DNA of 62,163 nucleotides from a virus (Duplodnaviria; Caudoviricetes). Of this stretch, positions 7,320 to 24,922 are shown in pieces; positions within the stretch are counted from its first letter, which is position 1; every line of letters begins with the position of its first letter. The translations under genes were made by a program, and so were the position numbers. Below the pieces are notes generated by a model. The model was given only the letters and a program-made list of their open reading frames with translations, was not told where the DNA came from and searched no databases. Where the stretch lies: the IMG/VR virus record IMGVR_UViG_3300013126_004346, positions 1 to 62,163 of that record; one strand, given 5' to 3'.

Positions 7320-7934
7320 TTATATTTTGTCAAATGAATTTTGACTATTCATTTTAATATTAATTAGTTTTAAAGCTTTATTATGTATATTTATAACTGT
7401 TTGGGTGCTGAGTTTTAATCTTTTACCAATATTATGCCAAGATAAAGTTTTATTGCTTTTATTAAAATATCTAAGTTTAAATATTTTTATCATTCTTTTG
7501 TCTTTCATTTGAGATAATATTTCAAAAATAAAATCAGCCTTGTCTTTATCTAAAATTGATAGATCTTCTCTGGCTTGAATTTGTTTTTTTTCTAAAATAT
7601 TTTTTATATTTTCATCATTCATAGATATTGCTTGCTGTGTTTTATTTATTAAATTTAAACAATGATATCTCATTTGATTGCCTAGCCAAGTAGAAAATTT
7701 AACATTTTTATCTGGATCAAAATTTAATGCTGATTTATATATTATATATGTTTTATCTTCGCTTATATCTTGAAGATCGAATCCAGAATTTAATAAAACA
7801 TTTTGGTATCTTTTTATCATCTGATGACAGATTCCGCTATGCCTTAATTCTAGCTCTTTAAGTGCATCACTTGAATTATTATTTTTTACTTGATAAACTA
7901 ATTCTATATCATTACAATTATGGCAGTCTTGCAT
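7320..7934 (-). CDS. phage RNA polymerase sigma factor (sigma70 family, regions 2 and 4)
   Basis: KSALNFDPDKNVKFSTW (region 2) and LSWHNIGKRLKLSTQTVINIHNKAL (region 4 HTH). Confidence 0.85.
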   Translation of the reverse strand: MQDCHNCNDIELVYQVKNNNSSDALKELELRHSGICHQMIKRYQNVLLNSGFDLQDISEDKTYIIYKSALNFDPDKNVKFSTWLGNQMRYHCLNLINKTQQAISMNDENIKNILEKKQIQAREDLSILDKDKADFIFEILSQMKDKRMIKIFKLRYFNKSNKTLSWHNIGKRLKLSTQTVINIHNKALKLINIKMNSQNSFDKI

Positions 7935-13889: not shown

Positions 13890-13910
13890 AAATTAATTTA
13901 TTAAATTTCT

Positions 13911-14298
13911 TGGACCCGAAAGGAGTTGAACCTTTGTCTTTTAGAGAACTTAAATTAAAATACTACAGGTTTATTTCTTTTTATTTTTTGCCTTTTATAG
14001 ATAAAGAACAAACATAATTGGCGATTTTATTTTTAATACTAAATATTAATAGAATAAAAAAACTATTAGTATAAAGACATCTAAATACGCAATATTCCAG
14101 TAGATGTGTCGTGGATATCACGCTGTAGAACTTAGGCTACAGAAACGGTCTCCTCAGCTAGAGAGACTCTAGCAGAGATATGACCTTTGTATTTAGCTGT
14201 TTTGGCAGTTAATACTTTTAAGGCTTTTTAAAGAGACCCACCTAAACCTCTACCTGCATTTTAATCTCGATTCCTAAAATCGAAACCAGTACGGGCCC
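13911..14298 (-). ncRNA. ssrA: tmRNA
   Basis: 5' GGGCCCGUACUGGUUUCGA; 3' T-arm AAAGG-UUCAACU-CCUUU then CGGGUCC-A; acceptor stem has the G3:U Ala identity pair; UAACU-GCC resume context; tag ORF 14206-14132 AKTAKYKGHISARVSLAEETVSVA-stop; CCA not encoded. Confidence 0.94.
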
Positions 14299-20228: not shown

Positions 20229-21293
20229 TTATAACTTCATTTCGCTAAAATCATCGTCAGATATATCGGTTTTTCTTGCGCCAATTTTATATGTTGAAAT
20301 TTCTGTTTCTTGTGGCGCTACTTGAACTTTACTACTATCTAAATAACTATCTAGCCAACCAGCGATTGGGTTGTCTTTTTGATTAAAAATTTTCTTATAT
20401 CCTAATGATCGTAAACGAGCATCACAAAGCCATTTTGAATATCCAGCTAGAACTTCAGCATTTAGTCCTAATAGGGATCCTTTACTAAAAAGATATTCTG
20501 CCCATTCAATCTCATTCTTAGCGGCTTGTTCATAAAATGCATAAACTTTATCTTCGCTCTTTTTAACAATAGAAGTAAAGCCTTCTTTATCTTCTTCTCT
20601 AAGAATCTTTATGAGATTTTGAGTAGTTGCAAAATGCAGCGCTTCATCTCTTTGAATAAATTTAATAATCTTAGCGTTACCTTCCATCTTTCCACGATAT
20701 CCAAAATAAAAAGAGCAAGCAAAACTTACATAAAACACAAGACCTTCCATTACGTTGACTGAAAGAATACAATCAAAAATCTTTTGTTTTAGATCTTTTT
20801 TATCATCATTTCCAAGAATTTTATCAAAATTATTTCTGATCAGTTCTGCGCGAGATACAATTTCCTTATCTTCCATAATACTATCAAAAAATTTACTAGC
20901 ATCTGGATGCACGTTATTAAGTAAGTAAGAGTAAGAATAACTATGTATACCCTCAAATCTTTGCCAAGTATTCATGCAAATTTCAAGTTCTGGATTACTC
21001 ACATAATCTTTAAGAGAATGAATGCTTCGAGAAAGCATGCTATCACCTAATGTTTGAAATTTTAAATTAGTATCAAATACAAATCTTTCTTGGCCAGCAA
21101 GATCTTTGTAATCGCCGCGATCTTTATTGAGAGCAATTTCATGTGGCCACCAAAAAAATTCTTCTTGTTTTTTAAAGAGTTCAAAAAAAATAGGATATTT
21201 AAATCGATCATATCTTTGAAGATTTAAATCTTCTCCAAAAAATAATGATTGTTTTGTATGATCTACATTTTTTAAATTTAAAACGCTTTTCAT
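20229..21293 (-). CDS. nrdB: class Ia ribonucleotide reductase beta subunit
   Basis: FFWWPHEI, GDS, EGIHSYSY (radical Tyr), MEGLVFYVSF, RDEALH, VAPQETEI. Confidence 0.96.
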   Translation of the reverse strand: MKSVLNLKNVDHTKQSLFFGEDLNLQRYDRFKYPIFFELFKKQEEFFWWPHEIALNKDRGDYKDLAGQERFVFDTNLKFQTLGDSMLSRSIHSLKDYVSNPELEICMNTWQRFEGIHSYSYSYLLNNVHPDASKFFDSIMEDKEIVSRAELIRNNFDKILGNDDKKDLKQKIFDCILSVNVMEGLVFYVSFACSFYFGYRGKMEGNAKIIKFIQRDEALHFATTQNLIKILREEDKEGFTSIVKKSEDKVYAFYEQAAKNEIEWAEYLFSKGSLLGLNAEVLAGYSKWLCDARLRSLGYKKIFNQKDNPIAGWLDSYLDSSKVQVAPQETEISTYKIGARKTDISDDDFSEMKL

Positions 21294-21901
21294 AAATTAG
21301 TGAATTTTTGTTCTTGCAGATCAAATTTTAGTTGATTATCTTTTACACTAATTAAATTTAATTGATTTTTATATTCTTTATTAATCCATACATCATCAAC
21401 ATGGACTTCACTCAAATTAGCATTTCTATCTGTATAAAGTAACTCATATGCTAGTTCATAACCATTTGAATTTAATATAGATCTAGAAATATCTTTCGTT
21501 TTGTCTTGTCTATATGCATCTACTTCAAAAGTCATAACTTTAAACTTTAAATTATTAGTAGTAAAGTATTCTAGCATTTCTAAAGTAACTTCTGGTGGAT
21601 CTAAATCTAAAGAAAGATAATCAATAACATCAACATTATTAGATTTTAATAAAAACTTATAATTTAATAATCTAGCATCTGCGACATAATAAGCCGTCTT
21701 TGGTCTTTGCGACCATCCTTGTGTCCAAGCAGGATGCATTTCGACTCCTATGCCTTTCCAATTTCTATATTTTTCAAAAAAATAAGTATTATTCCAAGTT
21801 TTATATTCTTGTGCTCCTAGGTCAACGAAAAAACCATTTTCTTGTTGATTTAAGATAATATCTACTATTCTATCTTGACCAATTTGAGATACATATTCCA
21901 T
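21290..21901 (-). CDS. FkbM-family methyltransferase
   Basis: SQIGQD, GFFVDLGA, NNTYFFE..WKGIGVE, IDYLSLD; ATG at 21901. Confidence 0.82.
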   Translation of the reverse strand: MEYVSQIGQDRIVDIILNQQENGFFVDLGAQEYKTWNNTYFFEKYRNWKGIGVEMHPAWTQGWSQRPKTAYYVADARLLNYKFLLKSNNVDVIDYLSLDLDPPEVTLEMLEYFTTNNLKFKVMTFEVDAYRQDKTKDISRSILNSNGYELAYELLYTDRNANLSEVHVDDVWINKEYKNQLNLISVKDNQLKFDLQEQKFTNL

Positions 21902-21908
21902 ATATTTA

Positions 21909-24170
21909 TTATAGCTTACATGCACCAGAAGAGCAATCTTTATTTTCTGTTTGATGCATTAGCTGCTCCTTATCGCCATCATCTGTATTATTATAATATA
22001 AACTTATTAATCCAAGTGAATAAGCATACATTATTTCTTTCATAACTTTTGCATCTGGCAAAATATGATTTTCATAATGACTATAATTATAGTATACATT
22101 AGTTGATATAGCCATGTCAATATATTTTTGTATAATTGCATTAATTTTTAATAATCCAAAATTATCTTTAAAATCATATGCTAATTCATAATTATTTTCA
22201 TATTTGCCAATTCCAGGCACAAGAACAGGCAGCTTGCCCATTTTACTCATTTTGTATGTTATTAAACTTCTTATAGGTTCAACCCCATTAGTAGAAGATT
22301 GAATTACCGAACTACTTTCGCATGGCATACAGGCAGATAGAGTAGAATGTCTTAATCCAAATTCTTTAATATCTTTTCTTAATTTTTCCCAATCAAGTGA
22401 TAATTTGCGCTTGCATATTTCATCAACTTTATCTTTATATGTATCAATTGGTAATATACCTTTAGCGTATTTTGTTCTATCAAATTTATCGCACTTACCT
22501 TTTTCTTTAGCCAATTCTAAACTAGATTTTAATAAATAATATTGAAAATATTCCATCCACTCATCTAGTTCTGGTAATGTTTTATCAGAATTATATTTTA
22601 ATTCATTTTTAGCAAGATAGGCGGCGAGATTAGTTATACCAACTCCAAGACTACGACGTTTTTTTGCAAAATTTTCAGCAGCAATATTAAAATAATCTTG
22701 AAGTTCGATGATTTCATCAAGAAATCTTACGATAAGATCGCAGGTCTTTTCAAGATCTTGCCAATTTTTAATTTCTAACATATTAACTGCCGAAAGTATA
22801 CACATACCAATTTCACCTTCTTTATCATGATAATCGTTTAATGGAATAGTTGGATGAATAACTTCTGTGCAAAGATTACTCATTGTCACTTTATCAAGCC
22901 ATGCCCCATGATTATTCGCGTGATCAACATTTAGTATATATATTCTACCCGTTTCAACTCTTTCTTTAATTATAAGTGAGAATAATTTTCTAGCAGATAC
23001 TTTCTTTTTAATTTTTAATTTTTTAGATTCGCATTCTTTATATACTTTATCAAAGTTTTTTGTCCCCCATGCTTCATATAATTCTGGAACTTCTGCATTA
23101 TTAAATAAAGTTATGTCTTCATCTTTAAGAACTCTATCATAGAACAATTTACTCATGCCAACTGTATAATCAAGTTTACGAACACGATTATCATCTGTGC
23201 CAGCATTATTTTTTAATACAACAATGTCTTCTATTTCATAGTGCCACCATTGAATATTACAAGTAGCGCTTCCTCCCCTTAAACCATTTTGTTGCCAAGC
23301 TTTGACGCTACTCTCATAAATTTTCAAAAAAGGAATTAAACCTGTGTGCACAACTTCACCATTTTTAATAGGAGATCCAAGTGCTCGGATTTTACTAACA
23401 TCTATTCCAATTCCACATCTATTTGCGGTAGCCATACTAACAGCAGTAGCACTTGCAGTAATACTCTCTTTTGTATCATCTACTCCAATAAGACAACAAC
23501 TTGCATAATTTCTACTAGAAGTTCTTACTCCTGCCATTACTGGTGTTGGTAGATTAATCTTATGTTTACTAATAGCATCATAGAATTTACGAACATAATT
23601 TAATCTTGTTCCAGCTGGATAATTTATAAAAGCATAAGCAGCTATTAATATGTAAGCAAATTGAGGTGTTTCGTATATGATACCATTAGTTCTATTTTTA
23701 ATTAAATATTTATCACATAATTGTTTTATTCCAGCGTAAGTAAATATATAATCTCTATCATGATCTATAAATTCTCCAATTTTATTTAGTTCATCTTCGG
23801 TGTATTTTTCTAAAAGAATAGGATCATAAGTTTCATTTTTTATGCCATTTTGTATAAATTCGATAAGCCTTGGAGCATGTTTTCCTTTCCAAACTTCTTT
23901 TCTTAATTGATAATTTAAAAGTCTTCCAGCTACAAATTGATAATTTGGTTTTTGAATAGAGATTAAATTAGCCGCGCTTTCGATTAAAAGTTTATGTATT
24001 TCTTTTGTAGTTATTCCATCGTTAATATTTATTTTGGCATTTATTTCGATATCAGTTAAACTAACATTGCTATAACCATCAATCGCCCAGTTAATAACTT
24101 TATGGATTTTATCTAAATCAAATTTTTCAGACGAACCATTTCTTTTTTTTACATAAAAATTTTTAGTCAT
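21909..24170 (-). CDS. nrdA: class Ia ribonucleotide reductase alpha subunit with ATP cone
   Basis: VKKRNG ATP cone, PTPVMAG, ASCCL, SNLCTE, MPCESSS, C-terminal CSSGACKL. Confidence 0.97.
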   Translation of the reverse strand: MTKNFYVKKRNGSSEKFDLDKIHKVINWAIDGYSNVSLTDIEINAKININDGITTKEIHKLLIESAANLISIQKPNYQFVAGRLLNYQLRKEVWKGKHAPRLIEFIQNGIKNETYDPILLEKYTEDELNKIGEFIDHDRDYIFTYAGIKQLCDKYLIKNRTNGIIYETPQFAYILIAAYAFINYPAGTRLNYVRKFYDAISKHKINLPTPVMAGVRTSSRNYASCCLIGVDDTKESITASATAVSMATANRCGIGIDVSKIRALGSPIKNGEVVHTGLIPFLKIYESSVKAWQQNGLRGGSATCNIQWWHYEIEDIVVLKNNAGTDDNRVRKLDYTVGMSKLFYDRVLKDEDITLFNNAEVPELYEAWGTKNFDKVYKECESKKLKIKKKVSARKLFSLIIKERVETGRIYILNVDHANNHGAWLDKVTMSNLCTEVIHPTIPLNDYHDKEGEIGMCILSAVNMLEIKNWQDLEKTCDLIVRFLDEIIELQDYFNIAAENFAKKRRSLGVGITNLAAYLAKNELKYNSDKTLPELDEWMEYFQYYLLKSSLELAKEKGKCDKFDRTKYAKGILPIDTYKDKVDEICKRKLSLDWEKLRKDIKEFGLRHSTLSACMPCESSSVIQSSTNGVEPIRSLITYKMSKMGKLPVLVPGIGKYENNYELAYDFKDNFGLLKINAIIQKYIDMAISTNVYYNYSHYENHILPDAKVMKEIMYAYSLGLISLYYNNTDDGDKEQLMHQTENKDCSSGACKL

Positions 24171-24279
24171 AATCAAGCAACGTAATGTATCTTACATTAT
24201 TTTTACGAAAGAAAAAAGTAAAAAGAATTATTTTATTAACAAAAAGGAAAAAAGCTATATGAAGTGTATTAAAAAATTA

Positions 24280-24560
24280 CTTCCCAATGAGTTCTCCAAA
24301 GCGGAGCTTTCCCTGTTTTTTAGGGTTATCAAAGCCTATTAGTCAAACTTCCCAATCGAGTCTATAAAGCCTTTCGGCCCCTAGCACTTATCAGACACCG
24401 GTAGAACTGTCATTTGCGCGCTAGCCCTTACACCTACACACCCACTAAATATAGTGGTTTTCTGGGTCGCAAGCTCCGTTAGCGTTGCCCACGTATCGAC
24501 TAATAAGACTTATCGTTTTTCGGAGTACGACAAACCTTATCCGCTAATTGGGCGGTATGT
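24280..24560 (-). ncRNA. unassigned structured RNA of about 280 nt in the nrdA upstream region
   Basis: GC-rich non-coding island; 14-bp hairpin 24540-24503 with G-U pairs; GCC-GAAA-GGC; CCACUA/UAGUGG; long-range complementarities; own promoter. Confidence 0.7.
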
Positions 24561-24566
24561 TAGTAT

Positions 24567-24595
24567 ATAGTAATATTTTTCTATTTAAATGTCAA
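24567..24595 (-). promoter_or_regulatory. sigma70-type promoter for the structured RNA
   Basis: TTGACA-17 bp-TACTAT; predicted start near 24560. Confidence 0.65.
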
Positions 24596-24602
24596 ATAAA
24601 AA

Positions 24603-24626
24603 GTGTAATAATAATAAAATAAGGAG
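24603..24626 (+). promoter_or_regulatory. GTGTAA promoter motif plus Shine-Dalgarno site
   Basis: GTGTAA at 24603 and AAGGAG before ATG 24632. Confidence 0.55.
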
Positions 24627-24631
24627 CTTTC

Positions 24632-24922
24632 ATGCAAGAAAAATTCAATATTACAAAAAATGATATTAAAAATGGCGAAAAAACAATACCATCTAATTGC
24701 GCTATAGCCAAAGCAATAAAAAGAGAAATGAAAACAAAAAATATAAAACTAGGAAATGTTTCTGTACTTCCAGACGATGTTTCTTTTTCTATATTTAATG
24801 AAAATACAAAAAGATTTAAAACATATAATGCTCGCATGCCTTTATATGGTAAAGAATTTATAAAAGCTTTTGACTCTGGTTTAAGAGTTAAACCATTCGA
24901 ATTAGAATTAAATTTTAAATAA
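24632..24922 (+). CDS. hypothetical protein
   Basis: 96 aa; SD site; ITKNDIKNG...CAIAKAI. Confidence 0.7.
   Translation: MQEKFNITKNDIKNGEKTIPSNCAIAKAIKREMKTKNIKLGNVSVLPDDVSFSIFNENTKRFKTYNARMPLYGKEFIKAFDSGLRVKPFELELNFK

What the first reader, a model, noticed from the sequence alone, without database searches (positions are those of the whole stretch)
24240..24595. Unassigned RNA of about 280 nt with mutually exclusive folds upstream of nrdA
Seen in sequence: a GC-rich, non-coding island with a TTGACA-17-TACTAT promoter. Fold A is a 14-bp hairpin AUAAGGUUUGUCGU/ACGAUAAGUCUUAU (24540-24503) whose loop CUCCG can form a pseudoknot with CGGAG (24478-74). Fold B pairs AAGUCUUAUUAGUCGA (24511-496) with UUGACUAAUAGGCUU (24346-332), and CGGAGCUU with AAGCUCCG (24309-302). 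The 5' CCCAAU has two possible partners, because AUUGGGAAGU occurs twice (24356 and 24288). There are also GCC-GAAA-GGC and CCACUA/UAGUGG hairpins, and a GAAGU/ACUUC hairpin plus U-tract at the 3' end. G-U pairs favour the minus strand. Inference: a co-transcriptional switch, such as a riboswitch or attenuator for nrdAB, a novel ncRNA, or a primer RNA.
Basis: partly seen in the sequence, partly recalled or inferred. Interest (0 to 1): 0.8.

Follow-up and report, generated by a model that had tools for sequence, protein, structure and literature searches.

The report
New structured RNA gene in lake phages
The GC-rich island upstream of nrdA is a separate gene for a roughly 290-nucleotide, doubly pseudoknotted RNA of unknown function that is conserved in a group of lake phages, where it usually sits beside the phage's tmRNA gene, so it is not a switch controlling nrdA.

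Summary
Window 24275-24560 (minus strand) is a non-coding island of 44-51% GC in a genome of about 25% GC, with a TTGACA-17-TACTAT promoter.

It matches none of 4227 Rfam families, even at E<=10.

Homologues occur in 47 of 80 related nrdA loci, in further IMG/VR contigs and in lake metagenomes.

Covariation supports one architecture of eleven nested helices and two pseudoknots. On type-A sequences 97.0% of cells pair, against 31-48% when partners are slid. On all types 97.6% pair, and 48 of 53 pairs show compensatory changes.

The Fold-A pseudoknot and the CCCAAU partners are not supported.

The nrdA link is incidental. In 22 loci the RNA lies downstream of nrdAB on the opposite strand. There it is a divergent neighbour of a one-piece tmRNA gene, mostly about 300 nt away.

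A 13-nt purine-rich motif occurs twice, and both copies change together between subtypes. Function is unknown. My best guess is a trans-acting scaffold or decoy RNA. No expression data exist.

The parts
24567..24595 (-). Sigma-70-type promoter, TTGACA-17-TACTAT. The predicted start is the A of ACAUA at 24560.
   Evidence: 10 of 12 matches. TTGAC lies upstream of 52 of 55 distinct family members, and at least 45 of 55 also have TAnnnT at a 16-18 spacing. My regex mislocated the start in several of the remaining 10, including the window itself. Alignments.
24275..24560 (-). The conserved RNA, 286 nt, subtype A.
   Evidence: Full-length match to covariance model R1, 313.9 bits. No Rfam match. Alignments A2 and A4.
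24541..24555 (-). P1 hairpin, CCGC/GCGG. Its loop CCAAUUA is not conserved.
   Evidence: (4 of 4 pairs with compensatory change over all subtypes).
24512..24531 (-). P2 hairpin, GUCGU/ACGAU.
   Evidence: 100% paired, 3 of 5 pairs with compensatory change; 5 of 5.
24497..24511 (-). P3 5' strand, AAGUCU..UUAGUCG. A long-range helix that closes the core domain.
   Evidence: helices 3 and 4: 96-100% paired, 7 of 13 pairs compensatory; 13 of 13.
24332..24345 (-). P3 3' strand, UGACUAA.AGGCUU.
24463..24491 (-). P4 (UGGG/CCCA) enclosing P5 (CGC/GCG). The P5 loop carries the 5' strand of pseudoknot A.
   Evidence: P4 variants are UGGG/CCCA, CAGG/CCUG, AUGG/CCAU and AUAG/CUAU. P5 variants are CGC/GCG, CGUC/GACG, UGUC/GACA and UGC/GCA (alignments).
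24471..24478 (-). Pseudoknot A 5' strand, CGGAGCUU.
   Evidence: all 20 distinct variant combinations form 6-10 contiguous pairs with the distal strand. helix 7: 3 pairs compensatory.
24302..24309 (-). Pseudoknot A 3' strand, AAGCUCCG, directly after GGGAAAG.
   Evidence: 0 of 300 permutations.
24442..24457 (-). P6 hairpin, CCACUA/UAGUGG. It is expanded by about 25 nt in subtypes C and D.
   Evidence: helix 8: 4 of 6 pairs compensatory. It looks like an NrdR box (recalled consensus), but it covaries as RNA.
24433..24437 (-). Pseudoknot B 5' strand, GUAGG.
   Evidence: GUAGG/CCUAC, GUAGCU/AGCUAC, GUGGAU/AUCCAC, GUGGCU/AGCCAC, GUAGUU/AACUAC. Three of the 18 combinations are imperfect.
24381..24424 (-). 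P8 (CUAGCGC/GUGCUAG) enclosing P9 (GACA/UGUC). The P9 loop holds the 3' strand of pseudoknot B (UCUAC, 24401-24405), followed by an invariant A-C-C.
   Evidence: helices 10, 11; helices 8, 10.
24368..24379 (-). P10 hairpin, GGCC-GAAA-GGCU. It has variable length and a GNRA loop in many members.
24347..24362 (-). Motif M1, GACUCGAUUGGGAAGU. Single-stranded and purine-rich.
   Evidence: Both copies change together between subtypes.
24311..24325 (-). P11 hairpin, CCCU/AGGG.
   Evidence: helix 13: 85% paired. helix 12: 92.7% paired, 3 of 4 compensatory.
24279..24296 (-). Motif M2, GAGAACUCAUUGGGAAGU. The second copy of the motif and the last conserved element.
24177..24274 (-). AT-rich spacer with nrdA's own proximal region ((G)TACAC, TTGTTAATAA, ATGTAAGATA). 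It is also present in loci that lack the RNA here.
   Evidence: (L003, L004, L008, L014, L017, L033, L046, L061 compared).
21909..24176 (-). nrdA, class Ia ribonucleotide reductase large subunit. A neighbour, not a target.
13908..14298 (-). One-piece tmRNA gene of the phage. In most relatives it is the divergent neighbour of this RNA; here it lies 10 kb away.

Best explanation
This is an independent gene for a stable, highly structured non-coding RNA. The RNA is 286 nt here and 283-323 nt in relatives, and it belongs to a family not in Rfam.

Shown:
- It has its own sigma-70-type promoter.
- It adopts one conserved fold of eleven nested helices and two pseudoknots. A long-range helix, P3, closes the core.
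- It occurs in a clade of AT-rich T4-like lake phages.
- It occupies either of two genomic places and is usually the divergent neighbour of the phage's tmRNA gene.

Inferred:
- The host RNA polymerase transcribes it early in infection.
- It acts in trans rather than on nrdA.
- It is most likely a scaffold or decoy. Its rigid pseudoknotted core would present two identical single-stranded purine-rich motifs (M1, M2) as equivalent binding sites for a partner, which could be a protein dimer or two copies of a protein or nucleic acid.
- The concerted change of both motifs between subtypes, in phages whose NrdA proteins are about 90% identical, suggests co-evolution with that partner.

I put about 0.85 on the gene-and-fold part and about 0.3-0.35 on the two-site scaffold mechanism. 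The confidence given for this field, 0.55, is for the statement as a whole.
For: No known family: Rfam gathering and E<=10 searches of the window region, and of four relatives of other subtypes, give nothing here. They do find tmRNA elsewhere.

Homologues: blastn finds the island in 19 of 80 nrdA loci. nhmmer profiles reveal subtypes B, C and D. A covariance model built from subtype A alone finds full-length matches (model 1-292) in 47 of 80 loci plus the window, with E from 1e-13 to 1e-109.

Structure:
- 97.0% of 1573 cells paired against 31-48% when slid; 24 of 67 pairs compensatory; 0 of 500 shuffles reach the observed score.
- 97.6% paired and 48 of 53 pairs compensatory. That alignment is fitted to the model.
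- cognate strands pair better than non-cognate strands for all 12 helices, 0 of 300 permutations each.
- pseudoknot A pairs in 20 of 20 variant combinations.

Independence from nrdA:
- 22 copies lie downstream of nrdAB on the opposite strand, convergent with a protein gene.
- 19 of 23 such loci have tmRNA on the other strand, and in 17 it starts 289-309 nt from the RNA's 5' end.
- The same pairing is seen in whole records G001, G002 and G005 and in metagenome contigs.
- There is one copy per record in the window, G004 and G006.

Co-occurrence with tmRNA: a 217-kb complete relative has neither the RNA nor tmRNA.

Promoter.

Motifs change in concert:
- Subtype A: CUCAAUUGGGAAGU and CUCAUUGGGAAGU.
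- Subtype B: CUCAAGGGAAAAAGU and CUCAGGGAAAAAGU.
- Subtypes C and D: (G/U)UCAAAAGAAAAGU and AU(C/U)AAAGAAAAGU.
Against: - There is no evidence of transcription, RNA ends or abundance.
- No intrinsic terminator is called or conserved after M2. In subtypes A-C, read-through into nrdA, 100-130 nt downstream, remains possible.
- The single-sequence folding energy is unremarkable (z about -1.1).
- No partner for M1 and M2 was identified.
- No complement occurs in the RNA itself.
- In the 62-kb window, matches to the motif or its complement are at chance level (6 matches against 5.1 expected).
- No complement was evident in the phage tmRNA sequences, which I inspected only by eye.
- The motifs fit neither a GGA-type nor an A-R-N-type protein-binding pattern in all subtypes (by eye, against recalled consensus patterns).
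- No protein gene travels with the RNA. The divergent neighbour in the window and the small ORF beside it in subtype D are unrelated.
- Many invariant unpaired nucleotides in the junctions would fit a ribozyme or ligand-binding core as well as a scaffold.
Confidence: 0.55

Rival explanations
1. A cis-acting riboswitch or attenuator with mutually exclusive folds that controls nrdAB.
For: In 25 of the 47 loci with a full-length copy, and in the window, the RNA lies on the same strand upstream of nrdA. In 24 of them it is about 100-130 nt away. No terminator is called between the two. Within subtype A the lower Fold-A stem stays wobble-compatible while overlapping P3.
Against: - 22 of 47 copies are not upstream of any same-strand gene.
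- The nrdA-proximal region is the same with or without the RNA.
- In L019 the RNA is 1.25 kb from nrdA.
- The alternative pseudoknot has no compensatory change and 25% unpaired cells.
- Subtype D has no overlap between P2 and P3.
- No Rfam riboswitch matches.
Confidence: 0.05
2. A ribozyme, either self-processing or acting on another RNA such as the neighbouring tmRNA precursor.
For: - Its size, the two pseudoknots and the many invariant unpaired junction nucleotides (CAA between P4 and P5, AAAAC after P4, A-C-C after pseudoknot B, AUAAGUG, GGGAAAG) are typical of catalytic or ligand-binding cores.
- It is tightly linked to tmRNA and co-occurs with it.
- It lacks a terminator, so the 3' end may be made by processing.
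Against: It matches no ribozyme family in Rfam, including the RNase P models, at E<=10. No activity or cleavage site can be inferred from sequence. The order of the RNase-P-like short motifs does not fit RNase P or a circular permutation of it (by eye, against recalled consensus).
Confidence: 0.12
3. A trans-acting base-pairing regulator in which M1 and M2 are two identical seed sequences for host or phage RNA targets.
For: Two exposed identical motifs evolve in concert. The RNA has an early-type promoter.
Against: In the 62-kb window, matches to the motif or its complement are at chance level. No complement was seen in the tmRNA (by eye). A 290-nt conserved tertiary core is unusual for a seed-type sRNA. 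Host genomes could not be searched.
Confidence: 0.12
4. A primer RNA or origin transcript. A structured transcript whose purine-rich segments form a persistent RNA-DNA hybrid next to an AT-rich unwinding region.
For: - The M motifs are purine-rich and are followed by very AT-rich DNA.
- The cumulative GC skew has its local minimum at 24450-24550.
- The cassette is found at two genomic places, each time with its own promoter.
Against: The skew minimum coincides with a switch of gene orientation, which explains it. G-U-tolerant covariation in twelve helices argues for a folded free RNA. In subtype D the DNA downstream is coding sequence of a convergent gene. Nothing else marks an origin.
Confidence: 0.05
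5. A very divergent member of a known housekeeping RNA class (RNase P RNA, permuted tmRNA, 6S or SRP RNA) that Rfam models miss.
For: It sits in the phage's stable-RNA region next to tmRNA. It has short resemblances to RNase P junction and P4 sequences (recalled, not tested).
Against: There is no Rfam or ARAGORN hit at the locus even at E<=10. The helix topology determined here matches none of these classes. The related cultured phages that carry permuted tmRNA have no such RNA.
Confidence: 0.03

Closest known systems
GOLLD and ROOL RNAs (large ornate ncRNAs of unknown function, often in prophages next to tRNA genes; from recall and the abstract of PMC12286853 in the listing)
   Same: It is phage-borne and strongly structured, its function is unknown, and it lies beside other stable-RNA genes (here tmRNA). 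Its peripheral hairpins vary around a conserved core.
   Different: There is no sequence or structure match to the Rfam models. It is much smaller, about 290-320 nt. No self-complementary loops suggest homo-oligomer cages. It has two identical purine-rich single-stranded motifs.
tmRNA (RF00023)
   Same: It is a phage-encoded, pseudoknot-containing stable RNA with a similar sigma-70-type promoter. The two genes are divergent neighbours, mostly about 300 nt apart, and co-occur.
   Different: It has no tRNA-like domain and no tag reading frame called by ARAGORN, and it does not match the Rfam tmRNA or permuted tmRNA models.
Riboswitch or attenuator leaders of ribonucleotide reductase genes (cobalamin and 2'-dG riboswitches; NrdR boxes; recalled)
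   Same: In subtypes A-C it lies upstream of nrdA on the same strand. One hairpin resembles an NrdR box.
   Different: Its position is not conserved. It has no expression platform and no Rfam match. The 'NrdR box' covaries as an RNA helix (helix 8).
Small stable RNAs encoded in the tRNA region of phage T4
   Same: They are stable RNAs of unknown function encoded in the stable-RNA region of a T4-like phage.
   Different: No homology was tested or is expected. This RNA is larger and pseudoknotted.
Candidate structured RNAs from IMG/VR (Fremin et al. 2023, PMC10690425; passages read)
   Same: They come from the same data source, and parts of this RNA may be among their 8495 candidates.
   Different: Their candidates are 29-151 nt, mean 67. 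The full 286-323 nt RNA with its long-range helix and pseudoknots is not described in the text I read.

Membership tests
Any Rfam 15 family | A covariance-model match at the gathering score, or at least a suggestive sub-threshold match. | tested here: not met
   only two spurious hits, E 4.3 and 7.8, in the AT-rich flanks; four loci of subtypes B, C, D1 and D2 gave only tmRNA.
Riboswitch / cis-regulatory leader | Lies in the 5' leader of the regulated gene in all members. | tested here: not met
   22 of the 47 loci with a full-length copy have it on the opposite strand downstream of nrdAB, convergent with a protein gene.
Riboswitch / cis-regulatory leader | An expression platform: conserved alternative pairing with a terminator or a start-site sequestering helix. 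| tested here: not met
   No terminator is called on the RNA strand. The 3' hairpin is not conserved. The alternative pairings lack covariation.
Riboswitch / cis-regulatory leader | Binds a small-molecule ligand. | not testable with these tools
   Needs in-line probing, SHAPE or ITC.
Independent ncRNA gene | Its own promoter is conserved with the RNA wherever it lies. | tested here: met
   for the window. TTGAC upstream in 52 of 55 distinct members, and at least 45 of 55 with a spaced -10 element. Seen at both genomic places.
Independent ncRNA gene | A discrete transcript with defined ends. | not testable with these tools
   Needs RNA-seq or Term-seq of infected cells or of lake samples.
Structured RNA (general) | Compensatory base changes that keep the helices, above controls. 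| tested here: met
RNase P RNA | A match to the RF00010/RF00011 models, and a P4 helix formed by a 5' CR-I strand and a 3' CR-V strand around the specificity and catalytic domains. | tested here: not met
   No Rfam hit at E<=10. In this RNA the loop strand of the long-range pseudoknot comes first and the GGGAAAG-preceded strand comes last, and the helices in between do not correspond (structure; RNase P layout recalled).
tmRNA, including permuted two-piece forms | A tRNA-like acceptor/T-arm and a tag reading frame. | tested here: not met
   ARAGORN and Rfam find the phage's tmRNA elsewhere but nothing at this locus.
Group I intron | Interrupts a gene; P3-P7 pseudoknot topology with a P4-P6 domain; Rfam RF00028 match. 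| tested here: not met
   It is intergenic and has its own promoter. There is no Rfam hit. The strand order P3-P4-P5-P4'-P6 is similar, but the rest (a pseudoknot into the P9 loop, P3 closing after P10 and M1) differs (intron layout recalled).
Guide/scaffold RNAs of mobile nucleases or reverse transcriptases (omega RNA, bridge RNA, retron or DRT ncRNA) | An adjacent gene for the partner enzyme. | tested here: not met
   The neighbours have no Pfam family and only PHROGs of unknown function. The neighbours at the two places are unrelated.

The most novel reading that the evidence does not exclude
This is a previously unrecognised class of phage RNA that works together with the phage's own tmRNA. 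It might be an RNA cofactor, a processing ribozyme, or a decoy that redirects the host's ribosome-rescue machinery during infection. In that reading the two co-evolving purine motifs are the contact sites. The conserved divergent RNA-tmRNA gene pair would then be a two-RNA functional module.
Probability: 0.15. Interest if true: 0.9.

Novelty: categorically new. Interest (0 to 1): 0.72.

Why it matters
Large RNAs with intricate tertiary folds are rare. Almost every class found so far has turned out to be a ribozyme, a riboswitch or the core of an RNP machine.

This family combines several useful features:
- Two pseudoknots backed by abundant covariation.
- Several sharply distinct subtypes.
- A conserved partnership with tmRNA genes.
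- A duplicated motif that evolves in concert.
- Presence in phages recovered from many lake-water and freshwater metagenomes.

It is small enough for chemical probing and cryo-EM or crystallography. Its subtype swaps among phages with near-identical core genes hint at an arms-race function such as host takeover or counter-defence. The result also corrects the tempting annotation 'nrdA riboswitch'.

Tried and rejected
- NrdR box: the palindrome CCACUAUAUUUAGUGG resembles the recalled NrdR-box consensus. I rejected this because the arms covary as an RNA helix.
- Known RNA classes: Rfam at gathering and at E<=10 gave nothing. I considered RNase P, permuted RNase P, permuted tmRNA, group I intron, cobalamin riboswitch, omega RNA, bridge RNA and retron RNA by topology or neighbours and rejected them (see Membership tests).
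- A cellular copy: one genome-contig scan with a subtype-A motif gave 29 loci, none of which matched the profile beyond the seed. This tested only one subtype-A motif, so host copies of other subtypes are not excluded.
- blastn against 50,697 phage records gave no match.
- Cultured relatives: Pelagibacter phages Mosig and HTVC008M (NrdA about 52% identical) have no full-length R1 match. The only weak partial hits are E 0.01 and 0.68. They carry permuted tmRNA with protein-coding DNA beside it.
- The genome search with the RNA model reported no match in G001, G002 and G005, although direct cmsearch finds full-length copies there. I therefore discard all its negative answers. The absence in G003 rests on direct cmsearch.
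- Pattern scans: 3 of the 29 stretches were chance matches. Among the hits to the two 15-19-nt motifs, nhmmer matched only contigs already represented among the loci held, and the rest did not match.
- Expression: no RNA holder was listed by the look-up of sequencing runs. The holders with half or more of the sampled words are lake-water or freshwater DNA metagenomes, one of which may be the source.
- Partner of M1/M2: I looked for complements in the window (chance level), in the RNA itself and in the phage tmRNAs (by eye). None was found. Pairing of the P1 loop with M1 was rejected. J1/2 GGUUU with J4/6 AAACC showed no cognate specificity (112 of 300).
- A co-migrating protein: none. The neighbours are unrelated and have no family. 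SmpB is not found in the 62-kb window, which is 40% of the genome.
- Small-ORF readings of the M1 region are not conserved between subtypes (by eye).
- Literature: no mention of this RNA in searches, or in the passages read from PMC7029224, PMC10690425 and bioRxiv 10.64898/2026.09.15.751765.
Full report
**The window and the locus.** The window is an IMG/VR virus record of 62 kb, estimated 40% complete. It is AT-rich, and its NrdA is 50-52% identical to those of T4-like Pelagibacter and Synechococcus myophages. Between nrdA (minus strand, start 24176 or 24170) and a divergent plus-strand ORF (24632-24922) lies a 455-nt intergenic region. Its centre reaches 44-51% GC, against 19-30% around it. 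A TTGACA-17-TACTAT promoter points along the minus strand. The single-sequence folding energy is not exceptional (z -1.10 and -1.03 for the two strands). No Rfam family matches, at gathering score or at E<=10. The only RNA gene called in the window is a one-piece tmRNA at 13908-14298 on the minus strand.

**Relatives.** A search with NrdA brought 80 loci from IMG/VR whose NrdA is 78-96% identical.
- blastn found the island upstream of nrdA in 19 of them, at 72-98% identity.
- The alignment showed conserved blocks separated by covarying arms and a conserved -35 hexamer.
- nhmmer then revealed more distant versions at the same place: subtype B in L060, and subtype C in L011, L015, L037, L044 and L063.
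- With a subtype-C profile, nhmmer found a large further group (subtypes D1 and D2) 2-2.8 kb downstream of nrdA-nrdB on the opposite strand.
- The window itself has only one copy.
- A covariance model built from subtype A alone (R1, 292 positions) finds full-length matches in 47 of the 80 loci plus the window. These are 19 of subtype A, 1 of B and 5 of C upstream of nrdA, and 22 of D downstream. There is also one copy cut by a locus end (L054) and one doubtful 82-nt hit (L065).

**Structure.** I derived the helices by hand from the subtypes and tested them in three ways.
1. On the MAFFT alignment of 28 subtype-A sequences (24 distinct), a structure of 13 helices including two pseudoknots has 97.0% of 1573 cells paired. 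Sliding the partners by 1-3 columns gives 31-48%. 24 of 67 pairs have changes on both sides, and 0 of 500 shuffles reach the observed covariation score.
2. On the model-guided alignment of 50 matches (46 distinct) from all subtypes, the 53 nested pairs are 97.6% paired and 48 of them show compensatory changes. That alignment is fitted to the structure and leans towards it.
3. Free of exact column alignment (strands taken as broad column ranges of A2), I compared the duplex energy of each sequence's own two strands with strands taken from other sequences. For all 12 helices the cognate pairs are better, with 0 of 300 permutations each.

Pseudoknot A joins the P5 loop to the segment after P11. 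All 20 distinct variant combinations form 6-10 contiguous pairs, for example CGGAGCUU/AAGCUCCG, CAAAGCUU/AAGCUUUG, GAAGACUU/AAGUCUUC and AAGGGCU/AGCCCUU. Pseudoknot B joins a segment before P8 to the P9 loop. It changes from GUAGG/CCUAC to GUAGCU/AGCUAC, GUGGAU/AUCCAC, GUGGCU/AGCCAC and GUAGUU/AACUAC, with three imperfect combinations out of 18.

The long-range 'Fold B' pairings are real; they are P3 and pseudoknot A. So is the top of the 'Fold A' hairpin, which is P2. All three belong to the same structure. Three other claims fail:
- The lower five pairs of Fold A overlap P3. They are kept only by wobble in part of subtype A (one pair fails in 5 of 24 sequences), and subtype D has no counterpart, because P2 and P3 simply abut there.
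- The Fold-A pseudoknot CUCCG:CGGAG is 75% paired with no compensatory change. It fails exactly where CGGAG changes together with its true partner.
- The CCCAAU loop is not conserved and shows no cognate preference for the repeated motif.
I therefore see no evidence for a switch.

**Genomic context.** The RNA is not tied to nrdA.
- In subtype D it runs towards the 3' end of a convergent protein gene.
- Its promoter side faces a one-piece tmRNA gene on the other strand. Of 23 such loci, 19 contain the tmRNA. In 17 of these it starts 289-309 nt from the RNA's 5' end.
- Three of the four loci without a tmRNA hit end too early to show it.
- Whole records confirm the pair in G001, G002 and G005, and so do metagenome contigs.
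- A small ORF of about 70-78 aa with no family lies between the two genes.
- A complete 217-kb relative (G003) has neither the RNA nor tmRNA.
- The cultured marine phages Mosig and HTVC008M carry permuted tmRNA and lack the RNA.
- Loci without the RNA upstream of nrdA keep the same nrdA-proximal sequence. In them the two TACAC-containing motifs that flank the RNA cassette in subtypes A-C lie close together. The promoter-plus-RNA unit therefore behaves as a cassette that has moved.
- No protein gene moves with it.

**The repeated motif.** A purine-rich single-stranded motif occurs twice: M1 before the 3' strand of P3, and M2 at the 3' end. Both copies have the same sequence within a subtype and differ between subtypes:
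- AUUGGGAAGU in subtype A.
- GGGAAAAAGU in subtype B.
- AAAGAAAAGU in subtypes C and D.
NrdA is about 90% identical across all these phages, and the first 168 nt of the tmRNA are 97.6% identical between the window and a D1 phage. So the RNA's subtype and position vary among otherwise close relatives. I found no complementary sequence in the RNA itself. In the window, matches to the motif or its complement are at chance level. I saw none in the tmRNAs (by eye).

**Interpretation.** The following are shown:
- A new family of structured RNA genes.
- One conserved double-pseudoknot fold.
- Its own sigma-70-type promoter.
- One copy in each record where this was checked.
- Linkage and co-occurrence with tmRNA.
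- Independence from nrdA.

The following are inferred: early transcription by host polymerase, action in trans, and a scaffold or decoy role in which M1 and M2 are two equivalent binding sites for a co-evolving partner.

Their odds are given in the Rival explanations section.

No expression data could be obtained, and no RNA run holds the sequence (see Tried and rejected).

**Novelty.** Nothing comparable was found in Rfam 15. Five literature searches found nothing. The passages I read from the pelagimyophage survey report a negative riboswitch scan. I rate the RNA as a family with no known relatives. What it does remains open.

Noticed in passing
window 13908-14298 (-): The phage encodes a complete one-piece tmRNA (106.7 bits) with a long predicted tag, AKTAKYKGHISARVSLAEETVSVA. 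Relatives have AKTAKYKGHISARVSLVEMTASVA (L311). No SmpB gene was found in the 62-kb window.
   Followed up: partly
L299 13968-14306 (Mosig) and L309 8621-8962 (HTVC008M): The cultured Pelagibacter myophages carry permuted (two-piece type) tmRNA genes, whereas this lake clade carries a standard one-piece tmRNA. This hints that the lake clade's host may not be an alphaproteobacterium (inference only).
   Followed up: no
window 21290-21925 (-): A 211-aa ORF with no Pfam or PHROG family sits between nrdA and nrdB. In L014, nrdB follows nrdA directly (5253/5257). This is the position where T4 carries a mobile endonuclease gene (recalled). It may be an inserted mobile gene.
   Followed up: partly
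window 24177-24274 and 24596-24612; L004, L008 around 2900-2960: Two TACAC-containing motifs (ATTACAC... and (G)TACAC) flank the RNA cassette in subtypes A-C and lie 10-20 nt apart in loci without it. All loci share TTGTTaATAA ... GATGTAATATAG before the nrdA start, which is probably nrdA's own promoter or operator region.
   Followed up: partly
L311 19279-19515 (+) and the equivalent place in other subtype-D loci: A small ORF (69-78 aa, no family) lies between the RNA promoter and the tmRNA gene. It is unrelated to the 96-aa ORF that is the RNA's divergent neighbour in the window.
   Followed up: partly
subtypes C and D, P6 region (e.g. L014 about 7660-7700, minus strand): P6 carries an insertion of about 25 nt with a conserved internal sequence (UGUAC...AUGGCU in D, UGUUU...AGCUUG in C) that subtype A lacks. 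It may be an extra tertiary-contact module.
   Followed up: no
G001, G002, G005 (against 71, 79): the genome search with an RNA model returned 'no match' for three records that contain full-length copies (E 1e-18 to 1e-21 by direct cmsearch). Its first-look filter loses this RNA, so its negatives should not be used.
   Followed up: yes
L285 12743-13965; L311 2413-5523; L316 5560-12596: Related phage records carry small tRNA clusters (3 in G001, 3 in G002, 12 or more in G003). None was found in the 62-kb window.
   Followed up: no
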